Shown in pieces: positions 46 through 39,057 of a stretch of DNA of 41,420 bases. The stretch is from Chlamydiales bacterium (GTDB taxonomy: Bacteria > Chlamydiota > Chlamydiia > Chlamydiales > SM23-39). Made by a program: the position numbers and the translations under genes. Positions within the stretch are counted from its first letter, which is position 1; every line of letters begins with the position of its first letter. The stretch lies in assembly GCA_036736085.1 (NCBI GenBank), contig DAINNB010000001.1, forward strand, positions 1 through 41,420, given 5' to 3'. The notes beneath the pieces are model-generated. The model saw only the letters and a program-made list of their open reading frames with translations, was not told the origin of the DNA and ran no database searches.

Positions 46-900
46 ATGATGCATCAAGAAAAAACAAGTCTCCTTTATGAAGGGAAAATCGTGGCAGAAG
101 CAACTTGCCTTGAACCGAAATATTCTGCCTTGTTAGCTAAAGGAATTCAGAGCTTGGGATCGATTTACCACCATAAACTTCTCCGCTATGAATGCCAGAA
201 GGGCTATGAAAATTGGATCGCAGGAAAAAGCGATCCGCGCATTTTACGCTTTGAAAGAGGAGAAACAGAAATCGCTGAAATTTTGGGTTTTAAATTTAAG
301 CAGGCTCCAGGAATTATCAAATCGCTCCTTTATACCCAATCGCACATGAATTTCTTTTTTGATGATCAAAGTTTAGGTCAGCTCATCTCTTTAAATCATT
401 TTAAGTCTCCGTCGACTCACAGAGAAGAGGGACTCGAAATTATTTTAGGGGCTCAACTCATGCCTTACTACACTTTTCAAACCGACCGCAGAGGCCGTCT
501 GTTGGTTCCGCTCCCTTCTCTTCCTCCTTTTGTCTCGGCACCCCAGTATCATGCAGGTCAAGCTCTCTTACAGATGCTAGTCATGGAGGAATTTACTCAC
601 CGGTCCATCGAATTGGCTTCAAATAACGGAATTGAGATCCTCGATGAAAAATGGGGGGAATTTCTTAAAAGATCTGGTCTCCCCGTTTCGGTCTTTAAAC
701 AAGTTCGCTCTCGATGGCTGATAGATGGCGATGATGGTCCTCGCTTTCTTATTCAAATCAGCAAAGACCGTTATTGCCTTGGAGAGTTTTACGCTAAAGA
801 ACTCAAGTTTCTCCATTCTCAAGGCGCCTTGCGTAAAGATCGCCAGCTCCAAGCGCAAATTTCGGTCCGCAAAAGAAAGTCTCTTCTTTCGATCGCTTGA
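46..900 (+). CDS. hypothetical protein (possibly 5'-partial)
   Basis: 284-aa ORF from the track. The same frame has no stop back to position 1, so the true start may lie upstream of the window. I recognise no motif. Confidence 0.55.
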   Translation: MMHQEKTSLLYEGKIVAEATCLEPKYSALLAKGIQSLGSIYHHKLLRYECQKGYENWIAGKSDPRILRFERGETEIAEILGFKFKQAPGIIKSLLYTQSHMNFFFDDQSLGQLISLNHFKSPSTHREEGLEIILGAQLMPYYTFQTDRRGRLLVPLPSLPPFVSAPQYHAGQALLQMLVMEEFTHRSIELASNNGIEILDEKWGEFLKRSGLPVSVFKQVRSRWLIDGDDGPRFLIQISKDRYCLGEFYAKELKFLHSQGALRKDRQLQAQISVRKRKSLLSIA

Positions 901-942
901 GTTGAGTGTTCTTTTTTTAAGGGTTTCCCCCTTAATAGCCCA

Positions 943-985
943 CCAAATGACTATCGTCTCTTGGAACCCTTTTTGATTTTTTTTT
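943..985 (+). terminator. putative rho-independent terminator (part of a repeated 3'-end module)
   Basis: Imperfect hairpin ccaaatgac-tatc-gtctcttgg, followed by aaccctttttgattttttttt. It lies 43 nt after the stop at 898-900. A reverse-oriented homologue occurs at 37401-37442. Confidence 0.45.
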
Positions 986-1382
986 CATGACAATAGATTC
1001 TTCAGATAGTTGGGATATACCTATCTCTGATCCATTACATCCCTAGCTCTGAACGGGTATATCCCTATCTTTAAAAGATTGTTTGAATTGATTTTGAGAG
1101 ACTTAAGGAAAATGAGGTGCAACGGTAACGGTTACGGTACTTCTTTTTGCTTTAAACGCGCCTTGAAAGGCGCTTGTTTTGTTTCGAATGTTATCCATTT
1201 TAGATTCCATTTGATTCCTATATTCGGAAAAAATATTTTTTGATTTTTTCTCAATTATTTCTTGCTTTTAACAAAAAATTATTTTAACCTTTGGGTATGA
1301 ATCATTTCGGGTTTTTTACCGATATGACAAAAAAAGAAAGGGAACTCGAAAGAAAATATTGTTTGTATAAAAGGAATTTGAT

Positions 1383-1712
1383 ATGGAAAAATTAAATAAA
1401 ATTTTGACAAAATACATAGAGCCAATTAAAAGACCTTTAACCATAACTAACGGATCGAAAAAAATATTTAATAATCAGTCTGAAGATAATTCATTAGAAA
1501 TGGCCAGATTGAGTATAGATCTATTGGCTGCAGATCATAAACGTTTAAAAACTGCTGCTTCGTTAATGGGAATGTCAATGAAGGATTTAGTTGTAGTTAG
1601 TATTGGGGATTTTATGTACCGGCAGCTCAATCGAGTAGCCAAAACATCGGCTACAAATTCTAAAAAGAAAAAGAGCTTAGCTAATAAAAAGAAAAAAGGC
1701 TCTTTAGAATAA
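1383..1712 (+). CDS. ribbon-helix-helix (CopG/ParG/antitoxin-like) domain protein with lysine-rich tail
   Basis: RLSIDLLAADHKRLKTAASLMGMSMKDLVV matches the RHH beta-strand/helix pattern R-x-[ST]-I-D-x5-H-x2-[LI]-K-x2-A-x3-G-x-S. AAGGAA lies about 7 nt upstream of the ATG. Confidence 0.7.
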   Translation: MEKLNKILTKYIEPIKRPLTITNGSKKIFNNQSEDNSLEMARLSIDLLAADHKRLKTAASLMGMSMKDLVVVSIGDFMYRQLNRVAKTSATNSKKKKSLANKKKKGSLE

Positions 1713-1727
1713 ATAATAGGAGATAAA

Positions 1728-1898
1728 ATGAGCGATAAATTAACTAGAATGTCAATAGATATAGCTTCAAAAGAGCATAAAAAAATAAAAATGAGAGCCG
1801 CTAAAGAGGGGGTCTCGATCCGAGAATTTGTCATCGATTGCATCCAAGATAAAATCGAAGCGCAAAGCTGCGAAAAAGATAGTAAAAAAAAGAAATAA
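1728..1898 (+). CDS. small ribbon-helix-helix protein (56 aa; below the ORF-track length cut-off)
   Basis: Hand translation: MSDKLTRMSIDIASKEHKKIKMRAAKEGVSIREFVIDCIQDKIEAQSCEKDSKKKK. It carries the same RHH motif as its neighbour. AGGAG lies 5-6 nt upstream of the ATG at 1728, and the stop TAA is at 1896-1898. Confidence 0.65.
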   Translation: MSDKLTRMSIDIASKEHKKIKMRAAKEGVSIREFVIDCIQDKIEAQSCEKDSKKKK

Positions 1899-2067
1899 GT
1901 CTTTTTGGCAAGAGTTTGTCTGCAGATTTGATCTCCATTTAATCCATAAAACCCGAGAGAAAAAAATCTGCAGACACCCTCTCAGAATTTTACCCCTTGT
2001 TCCTTTGAGCGTTATCTTGAAAAAAAAACATAAGTCTAAAAAACACTCTCCTTCGATCTCATTAAAT

Positions 2068-35574: not shown

Positions 35575-36441
35575 ATGAAAGATACAATTTCAAAGCATTT
35601 TAGGTTGATACAAGATAAACACATTTCTTCTAAATTTCAGATTAGAAATGTAGATTTTATTTATTTAATTAATTTGGATAGAAGAACAGACCGGCTTCAA
35701 CGATGTTTTCGACAGCTTTCTCCTTACCAGATTAGGCCTCATCGTGCTCCTGGGATTGATGGCTGGAGTTTATCTCAAGAGGTATTTGATGATATTGCGA
35801 TGATCGTCGAGCCATCGATGCGGTATGATCGAAATGTACAGGTGAGCTTTGTTCCTGGGAATTCTCCTGGGAAACCATTTCGAGATCTTGTAGCAGGACA
35901 AAGGTGTTTGCATAAAGATGCGCCTGGCGGAGGAATGGGGGGGTGTTTGACCCATCTTTCCATCTTGGAGGATGCGTATATGTCCGGTTTTGAAACGGTA
36001 TGGATTTTGGAAGATGATTTTACCGCAAAAGGAAATCCCCATGAACTTGCCGATCTAATAGACCGTCTGGATAAGTTAGAGAGCGGCTGGGATGTTCTTT
36101 ATACAGATGATGATTGCTACTATACACCATCTAACGTTAGAGCTCACTGCGGAAGTGACGGGTGGCTAAGACCTGGAATGCCGATGACACCTTCTTTAAT
36201 TGAAAGAAAAGCTGTGGGAGAAGACTTTTTCAAGATCGGAGGCCGTACTCAGGCCCACTCTTATCTTGTCCGCAGGTCTGGGATGGAAAAGATTTTACGC
36301 TTCGTGAAGGAAAATTGTCTTTTTTTCCCTTTTGATACAGAGCTTCCTACCATTGAAGGGCTTTGCCTTTATAATTTAAAATACGATCTCATCCATGGAA
36401 GAGATCGGTCTTACTCCGATACGTATGTTAAACAGCCTTAA
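35575..36441 (+). CDS. family 25 glycosyltransferase, paralogue 2
   Basis: VDFIYLINLDRRTDRLQRCFRQL and WILEDD. Confidence 0.8.
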   Translation: MKDTISKHFRLIQDKHISSKFQIRNVDFIYLINLDRRTDRLQRCFRQLSPYQIRPHRAPGIDGWSLSQEVFDDIAMIVEPSMRYDRNVQVSFVPGNSPGKPFRDLVAGQRCLHKDAPGGGMGGCLTHLSILEDAYMSGFETVWILEDDFTAKGNPHELADLIDRLDKLESGWDVLYTDDDCYYTPSNVRAHCGSDGWLRPGMPMTPSLIERKAVGEDFFKIGGRTQAHSYLVRRSGMEKILRFVKENCLFFPFDTELPTIEGLCLYNLKYDLIHGRDRSYSDTYVKQP

Positions 36442-36587
36442 AGAGGTCTGTGCAGAATTCAGGGGATTTTAAAAAAAACAGGTATTTGTTTTTTATTAAT
36501 TGAGCGATGTAATTAAAATTTTATTTGCTGACATTTGATTTTTAGTTCTTTTGCTTTTATTATCTATTTGAGTAATAGTGTAATTTG

Positions 36588-37358
36588 ATGTTTTACGAGC
36601 ATTTCATTGCTATTAATTATTCTAGTGAGAATTTTGAAAATAAAATAAATTCTGAAAAATAAAGTTTTTCTTCCGATCAAGAAAGCAGAGTGAGTTCTGC
36701 TTTTTCTAATGCAGATATATTAGAGGCTCAAGATCCAAGTAAACGTAAACGAGAAGAGCCTATTTCTCCAGTTGTTGCATCCTAGAGTAAAAGACAAAAA
36801 ATAGATTCTTCTCCTTTAGAGAAAACGAATGAGGTAGCTCAAGCCTATTTTTCAGCATCTTCCTCTTCTGAAGGTTCGTCGCAAAAAAAAGATGAGCTAA
36901 TTGGCTCCTTGTAAAATATTCATTGGAAGTTTGACGCAAGAGATTCAACCTTAAGCGTTATTCGTTTTTATGAAAGAAGTTTTGAATCAAATTATCGTTA
37001 TGGTACTGGTAAAATGATCTTTCTAGCCGGGACCGTATATGAAGGACGATTCAGTGAAGGAGTTGATCGCGGCCTTGGTAGGTTGACTAGCGCCAACGGG
37101 GATGTTTATGAAGGGGAGTTTATACCGTTCGTAACTTAAGAATCGGCTATTAGGCTGGTTCAAACCGCCAAAAATTGATCGCTGCAAAGTGGGGTAGTAT
37201 CGCTCGATACAACCTACTTTGCAGTGATCGATTTTTGGCAGCTTTCAATCCCGTCTAATAACCGATTCTTGATTCACGAACGGTATAAAAACGGATTGCC
37301 TTATTATGCAAATGAGGATGACTTTTTAAACATACCAAAATACTCGCCAGCCGCATAA
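36588..37358 (+). pseudogene. decayed MORN-repeat protein gene (three in-frame stops plus MITE insertion)
   Basis: A single frame from ATG 36588 is interrupted by TAA 36660, TAG 36783 and TAA 36912. The distal part reads YRYGTGKMIFLAGTVYEGRFSEGVDRGLGRLTSANGDVYEGEF / KNGLPYY, which is the MORN pattern Y.G.f..G...G.G. Confidence 0.6.
37123..37285. mobile_element. 163-bp palindromic MITE with TA target-site duplication (Tc1/mariner-IS630-type signature)
   Basis: The termini TACCGTTCGT...ACGAACGGTA are perfect inverted repeats, and the whole element is an imperfect palindrome. It is flanked by TA (37121-22) and TA (37286-87). It is unrelated to the AAGGGC repeat family. Confidence 0.75.
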
Positions 37359-37400
37359 TTTACTTAAATAAAGTACCTTTAATGGCGCTTGATATAATAA

Positions 37401-37442
37401 AAAATAATTAAAAAAGGTTTCCAAAGGACGATAGTCTTTTGG
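37401..37442 (-). terminator. putative rho-independent terminator (second copy of the repeated 3'-end module)
   Basis: On the minus strand: ccaaaagac-tatc-gtcctttgg, followed by aaaccttttttaatt. It lies downstream of the GT11 stop at 37497 and is homologous to 943-985. Confidence 0.45.
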
Positions 37443-37496
37443 TTGGTTCTTAAGGGCGAAGCTCTTAAAAAAGAGCTGTTAACTTCACAGGCACTC

Positions 37497-38372
37497 TTAA
37501 TCGTTATTATCGATACACTGTGAGACTTTGTCGTAATCGTAGACGTCATCTGGCAACGGTTGAATGGGTCCGCAGTCCATTAACGTCCACTCGGGCAGGA
37601 AGAAATCTTCTGCTCGGGGGTTGATTTGCAGAGCGGGGTTTTTCCAAAGCCGTGGGAGGAGCACTTTTTTATCTGGATTTTGATTGAAATAAGCGGCCCA
37701 CCAAGAAAAAGAAGAGTTGCAGAGGATATTGTGTTTGCATTTTGCAAGTAAAAATAGATCTTCTATGGCGTAGTTATCCTCTACGAAAATGAAATTTCTA
37801 GGGATAGAAGAGAAGTGTTTTTTACACCAGTTGATTCGGTCTGAAGTAATGACAAATAGAGAGTCTTCAGGGAACTGATCGATGCATCTTTGATAATAGT
37901 CCATGCCCCAGAAGGGGTGATTCCCATTGTTATGTGTTCTTCGGCATTGTGTTCTTACGTGAACGCCTACTGTTTTAGGATGTTCTAGAACGTCTTTATA
38001 TTTTACTTGTAAATAGTGAAGAGTGAAATCTGAAGGGGCGAATACTTGTAGGAGTTTTTCTTGGTGATGATGAAAACGTTTCCAAGACTGGAGATAGCCA
38101 TTGAGTACGAGGTCGTTTTGAAAAGGGATTTTTTCTGCACCGTACCAGCTTGATTCTTCAAAAATATGTGCAGGGGGCCTTGGAAGCATTGATGAGTTTA
38201 ATCTAAAAAACATCCGATCTTTGTTATAAGAGATATTCCAAGCTTTTTGATGCAGGGCTGGAAAGTAGGCGTCTGCACCATAGTCCCAAGCGTAAGCTAA
38301 GGTAGTGGCTATTTGGAAAAATTGATTTCCAAGCTGGCCGTAAATTTGGCAAGAGACAAAGGGCTTTTGCAC
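37497..38372 (-). CDS. family 11 glycosyltransferase (alpha-1,2-fucosyltransferase-like), paralogue 3
   Basis: GQLGNQFFQIATTLAYAWDY, HVRTQC and NSSFSWWAAYFN. GTG start. Confidence 0.85.
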   Translation of the reverse strand: MQKPFVSCQIYGQLGNQFFQIATTLAYAWDYGADAYFPALHQKAWNISYNKDRMFFRLNSSMLPRPPAHIFEESSWYGAEKIPFQNDLVLNGYLQSWKRFHHHQEKLLQVFAPSDFTLHYLQVKYKDVLEHPKTVGVHVRTQCRRTHNNGNHPFWGMDYYQRCIDQFPEDSLFVITSDRINWCKKHFSSIPRNFIFVEDNYAIEDLFLLAKCKHNILCNSSFSWWAAYFNQNPDKKVLLPRLWKNPALQINPRAEDFFLPEWTLMDCGPIQPLPDDVYDYDKVSQCIDNND

Positions 38373-38376
38373 GCAG

Positions 38377-39057
38377 TTACACCGAATATAAGGGTTTTAA
38401 TACGATGACGGGTTCATGGAGTTCTTCATCATCCTTTTGGAGATCTTCATAAGAGTAGCCAAAGTAGCCTTGAGGCCGCCATCCTTTGAAGAGCTTTTTC
38501 ATCCGTTTTTCTCCATAGATTCTGTGCGAATTCCATATAAGTCGATCTTTGCCGACAGGAATTGATAGATAAAGAAGTCCAGAACCGTGAAGCAATTTTT
38601 TAGCTTCGTGCATAGCTTTTAGATCTGCATCGAGATCGATCGTTGACCCAAATCCGAGTGTTTTGAGTTGAAGTAAGAGAAAAATTGCATCAAAAGAGCG
38701 GGGTTTAGGTTCTTTTTCTACTTCTAAACAAGAATCCAAGGAGACATTAGACTGAGAAGGGATCGTTTTAGGTTGTATTCCCAAAGAGAGCAAAAGGCTT
38801 TCATACCAAGGATTTGTCGAAAATAAGACCCCTACATTTTTGCCTGCTGCTGGAAAAGTATTTAAAGCCTCGATAAGATAAATGTCAGTTTGAGATAGAA
38901 CAGTTCTATTCTTAATCATTGCTAGATAGGATTCTACTTGGCTTTTTGTAAAATGGGCTATTAACGGAGATTTAGGTTGATTTGTATAAGACAAAATTGT
39001 CTCTTCTTGTTGAAGTGTCTGATAAATTTCTTGAGGGATGTCTGGCTGATTGATCAT
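38377..39057 (-). CDS. DUF268-like protein (SAM-methyltransferase-like fold family best known from Caenorhabditis)
   Basis: ...NPWYESLLL...FDAIFLL...LLHGSGLLYLSIPVGKDRLIWNSHRIYGEKRMKKLFKGW resembles the DUF268 signature ending in FNAHRIYG..R. Recognised from memory and not searched. Confidence 0.5.
   Translation of the reverse strand: MINQPDIPQEIYQTLQQEETILSYTNQPKSPLIAHFTKSQVESYLAMIKNRTVLSQTDIYLIEALNTFPAAGKNVGVLFSTNPWYESLLLSLGIQPKTIPSQSNVSLDSCLEVEKEPKPRSFDAIFLLLQLKTLGFGSTIDLDADLKAMHEAKKLLHGSGLLYLSIPVGKDRLIWNSHRIYGEKRMKKLFKGWRPQGYFGYSYEDLQKDDEELHEPVIVLKPLYSV

What the first reader, a model, noticed from the sequence alone, without database searches (positions are those of the whole stretch)
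37121..37287. IS630/mariner-type MITE with TA duplication inserted in frame into a MORN repeat; precise excision restores the repeat consensus
The 163-bp palindrome (termini TACCGTTCGT / ACGAACGGTA) is flanked by TA on both sides. Removing the element plus one TA (165 nt, a multiple of 3) joins ...GDVYEGEF to KNGLPYY.... That regenerates a canonical MORN unit (Y-x-G-x-F-x-N-G) in the same reading frame. This reconstructs the insertion event at the nucleotide level. Because TA duplication is the hallmark of Tc1/mariner-IS630 transposition, it also implies that an IS630-family transposase is or was active in this genome.
Basis: seen in the sequence. Interest (0 to 1): 0.6.

Follow-up and report, generated by a model that had tools for sequence, protein, structure and literature searches.

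The report
Palindromic MITE inside a MORN gene
A 163-bp hairpin-shaped, non-coding jumping element that duplicates a TA on insertion sits in frame inside a small, probably decaying MORN-repeat gene of a chlamydia-like bacterium; it belongs to a large, undescribed but ordinary family of bacterial MITEs whose transposase was not found.

Summary
Window 37123-37285 is a 163-bp near-perfect palindrome flanked by TA on both sides. Removing 165 nt joins ...GDVYEGEF to KNGLPYY... in frame and raises the Pfam MORN score.

It is a real MITE family. The source genome holds several further copies. Related Chlamydiota-like metagenome genomes hold roughly 70-100 copy-equivalents. All 24 catalogued junctions read TA|TACC...GGTA|TA, with unrelated flanks beyond the TA.

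The TA duplication has independent support:
- A copy nested in an old terminal-repeat remnant fits only the one-TA empty-site model.
- A copy inside an acylphosphatase gene has a syntenic, uninterrupted orthologue, and only a 165-nt removal restores a gapless alignment.

The IS630 assignment is not shown. No transposase lies in the window, and no IS-length pair of ends occurs in 241 kb of related loci.

The MORN insertion is old. Every close relative examined carries it, and no empty allele was seen.

New points:
- In a 97% relative the ORF reads through the whole element. The window's TAA inside the element is a derived C-to-T change.
- The MORN frame has two further upstream stops.
- The family has three interchangeable end types and hybrids, like Correia elements.
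- Several copies are translated in frame, like Rickettsia RPEs.

This is a new member of a known kind, of modest interest.

The parts
37121..37122 (.). Left copy of the duplicated TA target
   Evidence: All 24 left junctions of family members have TA here. The duplication is shown.
37123..37285 (.). MITE core: 163-bp near-perfect palindrome with no coding capacity of its own
   Evidence: z -12.7. Family alignment. Extra depth and foreign flanks stopping at 37121 and 37287-37289 in the source-genome run X1.
37123..37158 (+). Left terminal inverted repeat, type T1. It carries about five window-specific substitutions.
   Evidence: Arm identity is 32/38 here against 35-37/38 in most relatives.
37250..37285 (-). 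Right terminal inverted repeat, type T1
37162..37244 (.). Inner stem and loop of the palindrome (shared family core GCCAAAAATCGAT...ATCGATTTTTGGC)
   Evidence: Only sub-threshold miRNA-like hairpin matches in Rfam.
37286..37287 (.). Right copy of the duplicated TA target
37137..37139 (+). TAA stop inside the element that ends the upstream MORN ORF. It is derived from CAA.
   Evidence: L001, L119 and nearly every other family copy have CAA here. A degraded copy in L009 also reads TAA. Other copies in X1 and X2 read C at 37137.
37014..37122 (+). 5' part of the MORN ORF from the first ATG: one full MORN repeat plus the start of a second (...GDVYEGEF)
37287..37358 (+). 3' part of the MORN ORF in the same frame (KNGLPYYANEDDFLNIPKYSPAA, then stop)
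   Evidence: Identical in L001, where it is read as part of a 114-aa product.
36690..37013 (+). Upstream stretch in the same frame with two in-frame stops (TAG 36783-36785, TAA 36912-36914). Probably the decayed 5' part of the gene.
   Evidence: Both stops are conserved in L001. That this stretch was once coding is an inference.

Best explanation
Window 37123-37285 is one copy of a non-autonomous, palindromic miniature inverted-repeat transposable element (MITE).

Mechanism. A transposase supplied in trans binds the ~36-nt terminal inverted repeats, cuts the element out and inserts it at a TA dinucleotide. Repair of the 2-nt stagger duplicates the TA. The DDE-type chemistry and the IS630/Tc1-mariner family of the enzyme are inferred, at about 0.55, because no parent element was found.

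This copy. It landed between the F and K codons of the last, partial MORN repeat of a small ORF. Core plus TA is 165 nt, so the frame was kept. In the phase used, the element was originally open, so the ORF read through it and gained 55 residues. A 97% relative (L001) still shows this state. In the window's lineage a later C-to-T change made a TAA stop inside the element.

Age and state. The insertion is old and appears fixed among close relatives. The host ORF is probably decaying, with two upstream in-frame stops.

Shown: multi-copy family, ends, TA duplication, in-frame position, read-through in L001, and the derived stop. Inferred: transposase family, cut-and-paste chemistry, and former function of the MORN gene. 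The confidence given (0.8) is for the MITE, TA-duplication and in-frame parts, not for the IS630 assignment.
For: Palindrome and TA flanks.

Multi-copy:
- X1, the source-genome run, has depth 15.6-36.2 over the element against 6.5 in the flanks. At least 7 other contigs carry element pieces with foreign flanks.
- Runs X24-26 have depth 940-2970 against 13-37 in the flanks.
- About 30 copies were catalogued in BP7.bin23, JAEHJW02, three further MAG assemblies and ENA contigs.

Ends: 24 of 24 left and 24 of 24 right junctions have TA next to TACC/GGTA, with nothing conserved beyond it.

TA duplication:
- Nested copy L125 9293-9459. Only the one-TA model aligns without a gap to intact right ends.
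- Two elements abut and share a single TA.
- Acylphosphatase copy L132 10164-10326. The protein has exactly 55 extra residues against five uninterrupted homologues. Pfam coverage rises from profile positions 4-53 to 4-85, and the score from 68.1 to 81.1 bits, once they are removed. L133 is a syntenic empty orthologue. Removing 165 nt gives 76% ungapped identity, against 46% and 45% for removing 163 or 167 nt.

MORN site: only the 165-nt removal keeps the frame, and the MORN score rises.

Read-through: L001 has a 114-aa ORF across the element.

TA duplication is the established outcome of IS630/Tc1-mariner transposition (PMC2170065).
Against: - No autonomous parent was found. No transposase is in the 41-kb window.
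- All matched pairs of ends in 241 kb of related loci are at most 131 nt apart.
- There is no match in the plasmid, phage or viral collections.
- TA duplication is not exclusive to IS630. The Neisseria Correia elements also have TA flanks, and to my knowledge no autonomous parent is known for them.
- Three different end types and hybrid elements are awkward for a single cognate transposase.
- No empty allele of the MORN site itself was found, so its reconstruction rests on frame and motif.
- The source genome and its relatives are low-coverage metagenome assemblies, so single bases in a repeat could be mis-assembled. That includes the TAA at 37137-37139.
Confidence: 0.8

Rival explanations
1. 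It is the same kind of TA-duplicating MITE, but it is mobilised by something other than an IS630-family transposase. Candidates are another family that can make 2-bp duplications (from memory, the IS5/IS427 group), a non-cognate enzyme, or a parent now lost from these genomes, as is thought for Correia elements.
For: No IS630-like gene or IS-length element turned up in any sequence examined. The family shows modular end variants, hybrids, and long and short forms like Correia elements. To my knowledge no parent is known for Correia elements. The only transposase trace seen is an ISAzo13-like N-terminal remnant beside a half copy in L117. It gave no Pfam hit, and its orientation does not fit a parent.
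Against: A strict TA target with 2-bp duplication and long terminal inverted repeats is the textbook signature of IS630/Tc1-mariner. RUP of pneumococcus, a comparable MITE, is attributed to IS630-Spn1. Only a small fraction of each genome could be inspected.
Confidence: 0.3
2. It is a structured functional hairpin, such as a terminator, a regulatory RNA or DNA element, or a recombination site. It would be kept by selection and spread by recombination, not by transposition.
For: The fold is very stable. Most copies are intergenic and close to gene ends. Several pairs of contigs share one flank of a copy but not the other. Window-versus-L001 divergence changes tenfold inside the element. Copies therefore do act as recombination junctions, or as assembly break points.
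Against: Copies sit in unrelated sites, including inside coding sequence, with exact 165-nt insertions relative to orthologues. One copy is nested inside another. No T-run follows the stem. No Rfam family matches at threshold. Hybrids that break the hairpin persist.
Confidence: 0.05
3. It is a palindrome-associated element of the IS200/IS605 (Y1 transposase) type, or a REP-like element. These insert next to a fixed short motif without target duplication.
For: Conserved TATA at both ends could in principle be a recognition motif rather than a duplication. The element is a strong hairpin.
Against: Length accounting at three independent sites needs one extra TA: 165 nt, not 163 or 167. The inverted repeats reach the very ends and are symmetric. 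The left and right junctions are equivalent.
Confidence: 0.03

Closest known systems
Correia / NEMIS elements of Neisseria
   Same: Both are small palindromic MITEs with TA at both termini. Both have long and short forms that differ by an internal segment (here about 163-169, 99 and 72 bp). Both have ends that come in alternative variants found in all combinations. Both reach about a hundred or more copies and are linked to rearrangements. Sources: for Correia; for this family. To my knowledge no parent is known for Correia, and none was found here.
   Different: There is no sequence similarity beyond the first TATA (TATAGTGGATTAA... against TATACCGTTCGT...). The host phylum is different (Chlamydiota-like). 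No IHF site or promoter function was examined here.
RUP of Streptococcus pneumoniae (mobilised by IS630-Spn1)
   Same: A non-coding inverted-repeat element of about 100 bp that inserts at TA and is present in about 100 copies.
   Different: For RUP the ends match those of a resident IS630-family element. Here no such element was found.
Rickettsia palindromic elements (RPE) and other MITEs fused in frame to ORFs (ERIC, YPAL)
   Same: These are palindromic repeats of obligate intracellular bacteria that sit in frame inside protein genes and are translated. Here this is seen in the MORN ORF of L001, in an acylphosphatase with 55 residues inserted mid-domain, in a VirK-like protein, in a methyltransferase tail, and in an EamA-methyltransferase fusion.
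   Different: A target duplication is uncertain for RPEs, and not all RPEs have TA ends. Here the TA duplication is clear. Most copies here are intergenic. Only some length variants add a multiple of 3.
IS630/Tc1-mariner elements such as ISY100
   Same: TA target, 2-bp TA duplication and terminal inverted repeats.
   Different: ISY100 is 947 bp with 24-bp repeats and encodes its own transposase. This element encodes nothing, and no cognate transposase has been identified.

Membership tests
Bacterial MITE | Terminal inverted repeats reaching the element ends | tested here: met
   32/38 identical between arms in the window copy and 35-38/38 in most relatives.
Bacterial MITE | Target-site duplication | tested here: met
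   The TA duplication is supported by a nested insertion, an orthologous empty site and the frame at the MORN site.
Bacterial MITE | Small, non-coding, many dispersed copies with unrelated flanks | tested here: met
   Elements are 72-169 bp. About 30 were catalogued. Depth ratios are about 3-6x in the source genome and about 65-80x in X24-26.
Bacterial MITE | Ends shared with an autonomous IS that supplies the transposase | tested here: inconclusive
   None was found in the window or in 241 kb of related loci. Whole genomes could not be searched.
IS630/Tc1-mariner-derived element | Insertion at TA with 2-bp TA duplication | tested here: met
   The reference behaviour is described in PMC2170065.
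IS630/Tc1-mariner-derived element | Ends matching those of an IS630-family element; DDE transposase with paired HTH domains present | tested here: inconclusive
   No candidate gene appears in any locus annotation or in the window. No comparison with a library of IS ends was possible.
Correia/NEMIS family | Sequence homology to the Correia repeat | tested here: not met
   The published repeat sequences share only TATA with this element. The resemblance is architectural, not genealogical.
MORN-repeat protein (host gene) | Match to Pfam PF02493 above the curated cut-off | tested here: met
   28.1-29.6 bits against a cut-off of 22.5. There is only one full repeat plus a partial one.
IS200/IS605-type palindromic element | No target duplication; asymmetric ends next to a fixed target motif | tested here: not met
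   A duplication is required. The junctions are symmetric.

The most novel reading that the evidence does not exclude
The family could be a true orphan. It would be a TA-duplicating palindromic element with three interchangeable end cassettes. It would have spread through several Chlamydiota lineages without any cognate transposase in those genomes. Mobilisation would then come from a non-cognate bacterial enzyme, or conceivably from a Tc1/mariner transposase of the eukaryotic host. Its in-frame, translated insertions would be a regular source of new protein segments in these intracellular bacteria.
Probability: 0.1. Interest if true: 0.65.

Novelty: new member of a known kind. Interest (0 to 1): 0.3.

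Why it matters
In itself this is an ordinary MITE insertion in a probably dying gene.

Its modest value has four parts.
- It defines an apparently undescribed repeat family in environmental Chlamydiota. My full-text searches found no description.
- It gives nucleotide-level proof of the family's target duplication.
- It shows that RPE-like in-frame translated insertions also occur in this phylum.
- It flags these repeats as points where flanks are swapped and divergence changes. That matters for judging metagenome-assembled genomes of these organisms and for understanding their rearrangements.

Tried and rejected
- The first genome-contig scan used a 16-mer that was too unspecific. Only two loci, both from MAG BP7.bin23, were real.
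- Using window 1896-2038 as an orthologous empty site for the L116 copy failed. The intergenic DNA is too diverged to align.
- Empty alleles were sought in 12 metagenome runs with read laying. No joint skipped an element.
- Flank-pair searching among the loci gave no clean filled/empty pair. It only gave pairs that share one flank.
- L119 at first looked like a second insertion with the same right flank. Its left flank is that of another copy in the source genome, so an assembly chimera or a recombinant is more likely.
- L127 looked like a nested insertion, but it is an old half copy abutting a full one. It says nothing about the duplication.
- The small ORF beside the L117 half copy resembles a transposase N-terminus (from memory, ISAzo13-like). 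It has no Pfam hit and lies the wrong way round to be the parent.
- The L129 half copy is not followed by a transposase gene.
- Searches of Rfam, plasmids, phages and viral contigs found nothing at threshold.
- The idea that the family is built to stay open in frame was rejected. Core lengths are 161-165 nt and most copies carry stops in every frame.

Full report
**1. Observation**

- ...GAGTT, then TA (37121-37122), then a 163-nt core TACCGTTCGT...ACGAACGGTA (37123-37285), then TA (37286-37287), then AAAAC...
- The repeat finder reports a 40-nt outer arm pair (85% complementary) and a 32-nt inner pair (84%).
- As single-stranded DNA the stretch folds at -53.3 kcal/mol, against -17.9 +/- 2.8 for shuffles (z = -12.7).
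- The ORFs 37014-37139 and 37224-37358 are in one frame.
- Removing 165 nt gives ...GRLTSANGDVYEGEFKNGLPYYANEDDFLNIPKYSPAA*.
- The window holds no second copy.

**2. The host ORF**

The joined product matches Pfam MORN at E 1.6e-6. I tested the junction itself.
- The fragment TSANGDVYEGEFKNGLPYY... aligns YEGEFKNGLP to MORN profile positions 1-10 (15.5 bits).
- The same fragment with the element peptide gives no match.
- The joined 59-aa product scores 29.6 bits in two stretches. The filled 114-aa product scores 23.0 bits in one.

Unrelated MORN proteins contain DIYEGEFKNGLMYGNG and GDVYEGEFKDGIFHG, so the joined string is a normal MORN word. Only the 165-nt removal keeps the frame; 163 and 167 do not.

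The gene is small and odd. Upstream, the same frame runs back to 36690 with only two stops (TAG 36783-36785, TAA 36912-36914). Both are conserved in a 97% relative. I read this as a decaying gene, which is an inference. No close homologue other than that relative exists among 5.8 billion proteins.

**3. A sister strain reads through the element**

L001 is an ENA metagenome contig, 97.1% identical over 2557 bp. It carries the element at the same site. There the codon at 37137-37139 is CAA, not TAA, and a 114-aa ORF runs through all 55 element codons into KNGLPYY....

Nearly every other family member has C at that position, and so do other copies in the source genome. A degraded copy in L009 also reads TAA. 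The window's stop is therefore most likely a derived C-to-T change. The insertion itself did not truncate the ORF.

**4. It is a repeat family**

- In X1, the run that holds the source genome, depth is 6.5 in the flanks and 15.6-36.2 over the element. At least seven other contigs carry element pieces. Similarity ends at 37121 on one side and at 37287-37289 on the other, with foreign sequence beyond.
- Pattern scans and a profile of element-encoded peptides brought in loci from MAG BP7.bin23, from contig JAEHJW020001158.1, from two further MAG assemblies and from ENA contigs.
- These loci carry ATP/ADP translocase, CopN and type III secretion genes, NEL-LRR effectors and a ~730-aa GreA. That points to Chlamydiota. 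I recognise these as chlamydial markers from my own knowledge. Extending the label to the window's organism is an inference. It rests on 70-84% nucleotide identity to the JAEHJW02 contig.
- In the mine-drainage runs X24-26, depth over one copy is 940-2970 against 13-37 in the flanks. That is roughly 70-100 copy-equivalents.
- Copies can be very dense: 4 in 17.6 kb and 5 in 20 kb.

**5. Ends and target**

- Across 24 left and 24 right junctions, the element is always TA|TACC...GGTA|TA. Nothing is conserved beyond the TA, apart from a mild T before and A after.
- TA is itself palindromic, so flanks alone cannot separate a duplication from element sequence. I therefore looked for empty sites.
- (a) L125 9293-9459 is a copy inserted into the solo right end of an older copy. 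Only the model with one TA in the empty site aligns without a gap to intact right ends (...AGCCGATTCTTGAGTTACGAACGGTATA).
- (b) At L126 13144 a copy abuts an old end and the two share a single TA.
- (c) A search of 1.84 billion representative proteins with the peptide profile found 28 proteins. One is an acylphosphatase with exactly 55 extra residues between ...VEICAQG and KRDELEQF..., compared with five uninterrupted homologues.
  - Removing the 55 residues extends the Pfam match from profile positions 4-53 to 4-85, and the score from 68.1 to 81.1 bits.
  - Its DNA (L132) reads CAAGG-TA-[163-nt core]-TA-AAAGG.
  - L133 is a syntenic contig (YggT, Dus, acylphosphatase, YacP, Ham1, GreA) with the uninterrupted gene.
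  - Removing 165 nt gives 76% ungapped identity across the junction. Removing 163 or 167 nt gives 46% and 45%.

The TA duplication is therefore shown for the family. The MORN reconstruction is consistent with it.

**6. Family anatomy**

- There are three end types: T1 TACCGTTCGTRACTCAAGAATCGGCTATTGGACGGG, T2 TACCGAAGAAAGCTGAAGAATCGGCTTACAGGCGGG and T3 TACCCAACGTGATTCAAAATTTGGCCGCTAGGCGGG.
- All three share the terminal TACC and an inner core.
- Three variants exist of the next block.
- The loop occurs in both orientations.
- Hybrids with different ends occur (T2/T1, T3/T1, T1/T3).
- Short forms of 99 and 72 bp exist.
- Core length is 161-165 nt, so adding a multiple of three is not a family property.
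- Most copies have stops in all frames.
- This architecture closely parallels the Correia elements of Neisseria. Those also have TA ends, alternative repeat variants in all combinations, and long and short forms. They share no sequence with this family beyond TATA.

**7. The transposase**

- All ORFs of 120 aa or more in the window were scanned. They form a large glycan-synthesis cluster with no transposase.
- In 241 kb of related loci, every matched pair of ends is at most 131 nt apart.
- No locus annotation lists a transposase domain.
- Plasmid, phage and viral collections hold nothing similar.
- A transposase-like N-terminal remnant beside a half copy in L117 has no Pfam hit and the wrong orientation.
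- Strict TA duplication with long inverted repeats is what IS630/Tc1-mariner enzymes produce, and RUP gives a precedent. IS630 stays the best guess, at about 0.55, but it is an inference.

**8. Age and activity**

- In every close relative where contigs cross a junction of the MORN site, the site is filled (L001, L119, X3, X6). X8 has the L001-type sequence up to the junction but no crossing contig. No joint skipping the element was seen in the eight runs of the window's lineage that were laid.
- Copies in the source genome differ from the window copy by about 10-20%.
- Type-1 copies in the mine-drainage lineage average 87% pairwise identity, with a range of 76-98%.
- Nothing indicates recent movement in the window's genome.

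**9. Copies as junctions**

- Between the window and L001, divergence is 7.4% left of 37176 and 0.7% to the right. The switch falls inside the element.
- The L001-type left segment recurs in other samples, so it is a real lineage.
- Several pairs of contigs share one flank of a copy at 99-100% identity but differ on the other side.
- These cases are either recombination at copies or assembly chimeras. Short-read contigs cannot tell them apart.

**10. Verdict**

- It is unproven on IS630 and on transposase activity in this genome.
- The element is a new member of a known kind. It is closest in architecture to Correia elements and closest in its in-frame behaviour to RPEs.
- Interest is modest.

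Noticed in passing
window 36353-38911 versus L001: Divergence between the window and its 97% relative is 7.4% left of position 37176 and 0.7% to the right. The change falls inside the MITE. The divergent left segment recurs in other metagenomes (X3, X8). This suggests a recombination boundary at the element.
   Followed up: partly
window 913-988 and 37397-37472 (opposite strands): This is a second short repeat of about 76 bp at 77-81% identity. Each copy lies just downstream of a gene end, in the same orientation to that gene. It contains a terminator-like hairpin (37421-37442). Depth in X1 and X2 is mildly raised there.
   Followed up: partly
window 1-41420: The whole window is a very large glycan-synthesis cluster with many eukaryote-like enzymes. 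It holds five GT10 fucosyltransferase-like genes, four GT11, two GT25, DUF268, GDP-mannose dehydratase, several epimerases, C-methyltransferases and FkbM methyltransferases. This is unusual for a chlamydia-like genome of about 2 Mb.
   Followed up: partly
window 46-1898; L116 1180-5188; L122 6000-10016: The cluster adjoins two ParD-like genes (1383-1712 and 1728-1898) and the end of a 551-aa ORF. In relatives that ORF is followed by a DnaB helicase, and the same 75-kb contig carries a tyrosine recombinase. The cluster may lie on a plasmid or an island.
   Followed up: no
window 36690-36914: The presumed decayed 5' part of the MORN gene encodes KRKREE and SKRQK motifs that resemble eukaryotic nuclear localisation signals. 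This hints at a former host-targeted effector.
   Followed up: no
L009 5326-5391: A degraded copy supplies the last residues and the stop codon (...PLLT*) of a 199-aa ORF. It does so in the same phase as in the window.
   Followed up: no
P0024, P0023, P0048 (from the representative search): Element peptides join an EamA transporter to a methyltransferase in one 514-aa ORF. They form the C-terminal tail of another methyltransferase. They also sit near the N-terminus of a VirK-like protein. In-frame fusions therefore recur in this family.
   Followed up: partly
L117 1510-1800: A small ORF resembles the N-terminal helix-turn-helix of ISAzo13-type transposases (from memory). It lies beside a half copy of the MITE and had no Pfam hit. 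This looks like an IS graveyard.
   Followed up: partly
P0019 and P0022 (from the representative search): Two long predicted proteins (759 and 646 aa) consist of about 8 tandem units that weakly match the element-peptide profile. They are probably unrelated repetitive sequence and were not examined.
   Followed up: no
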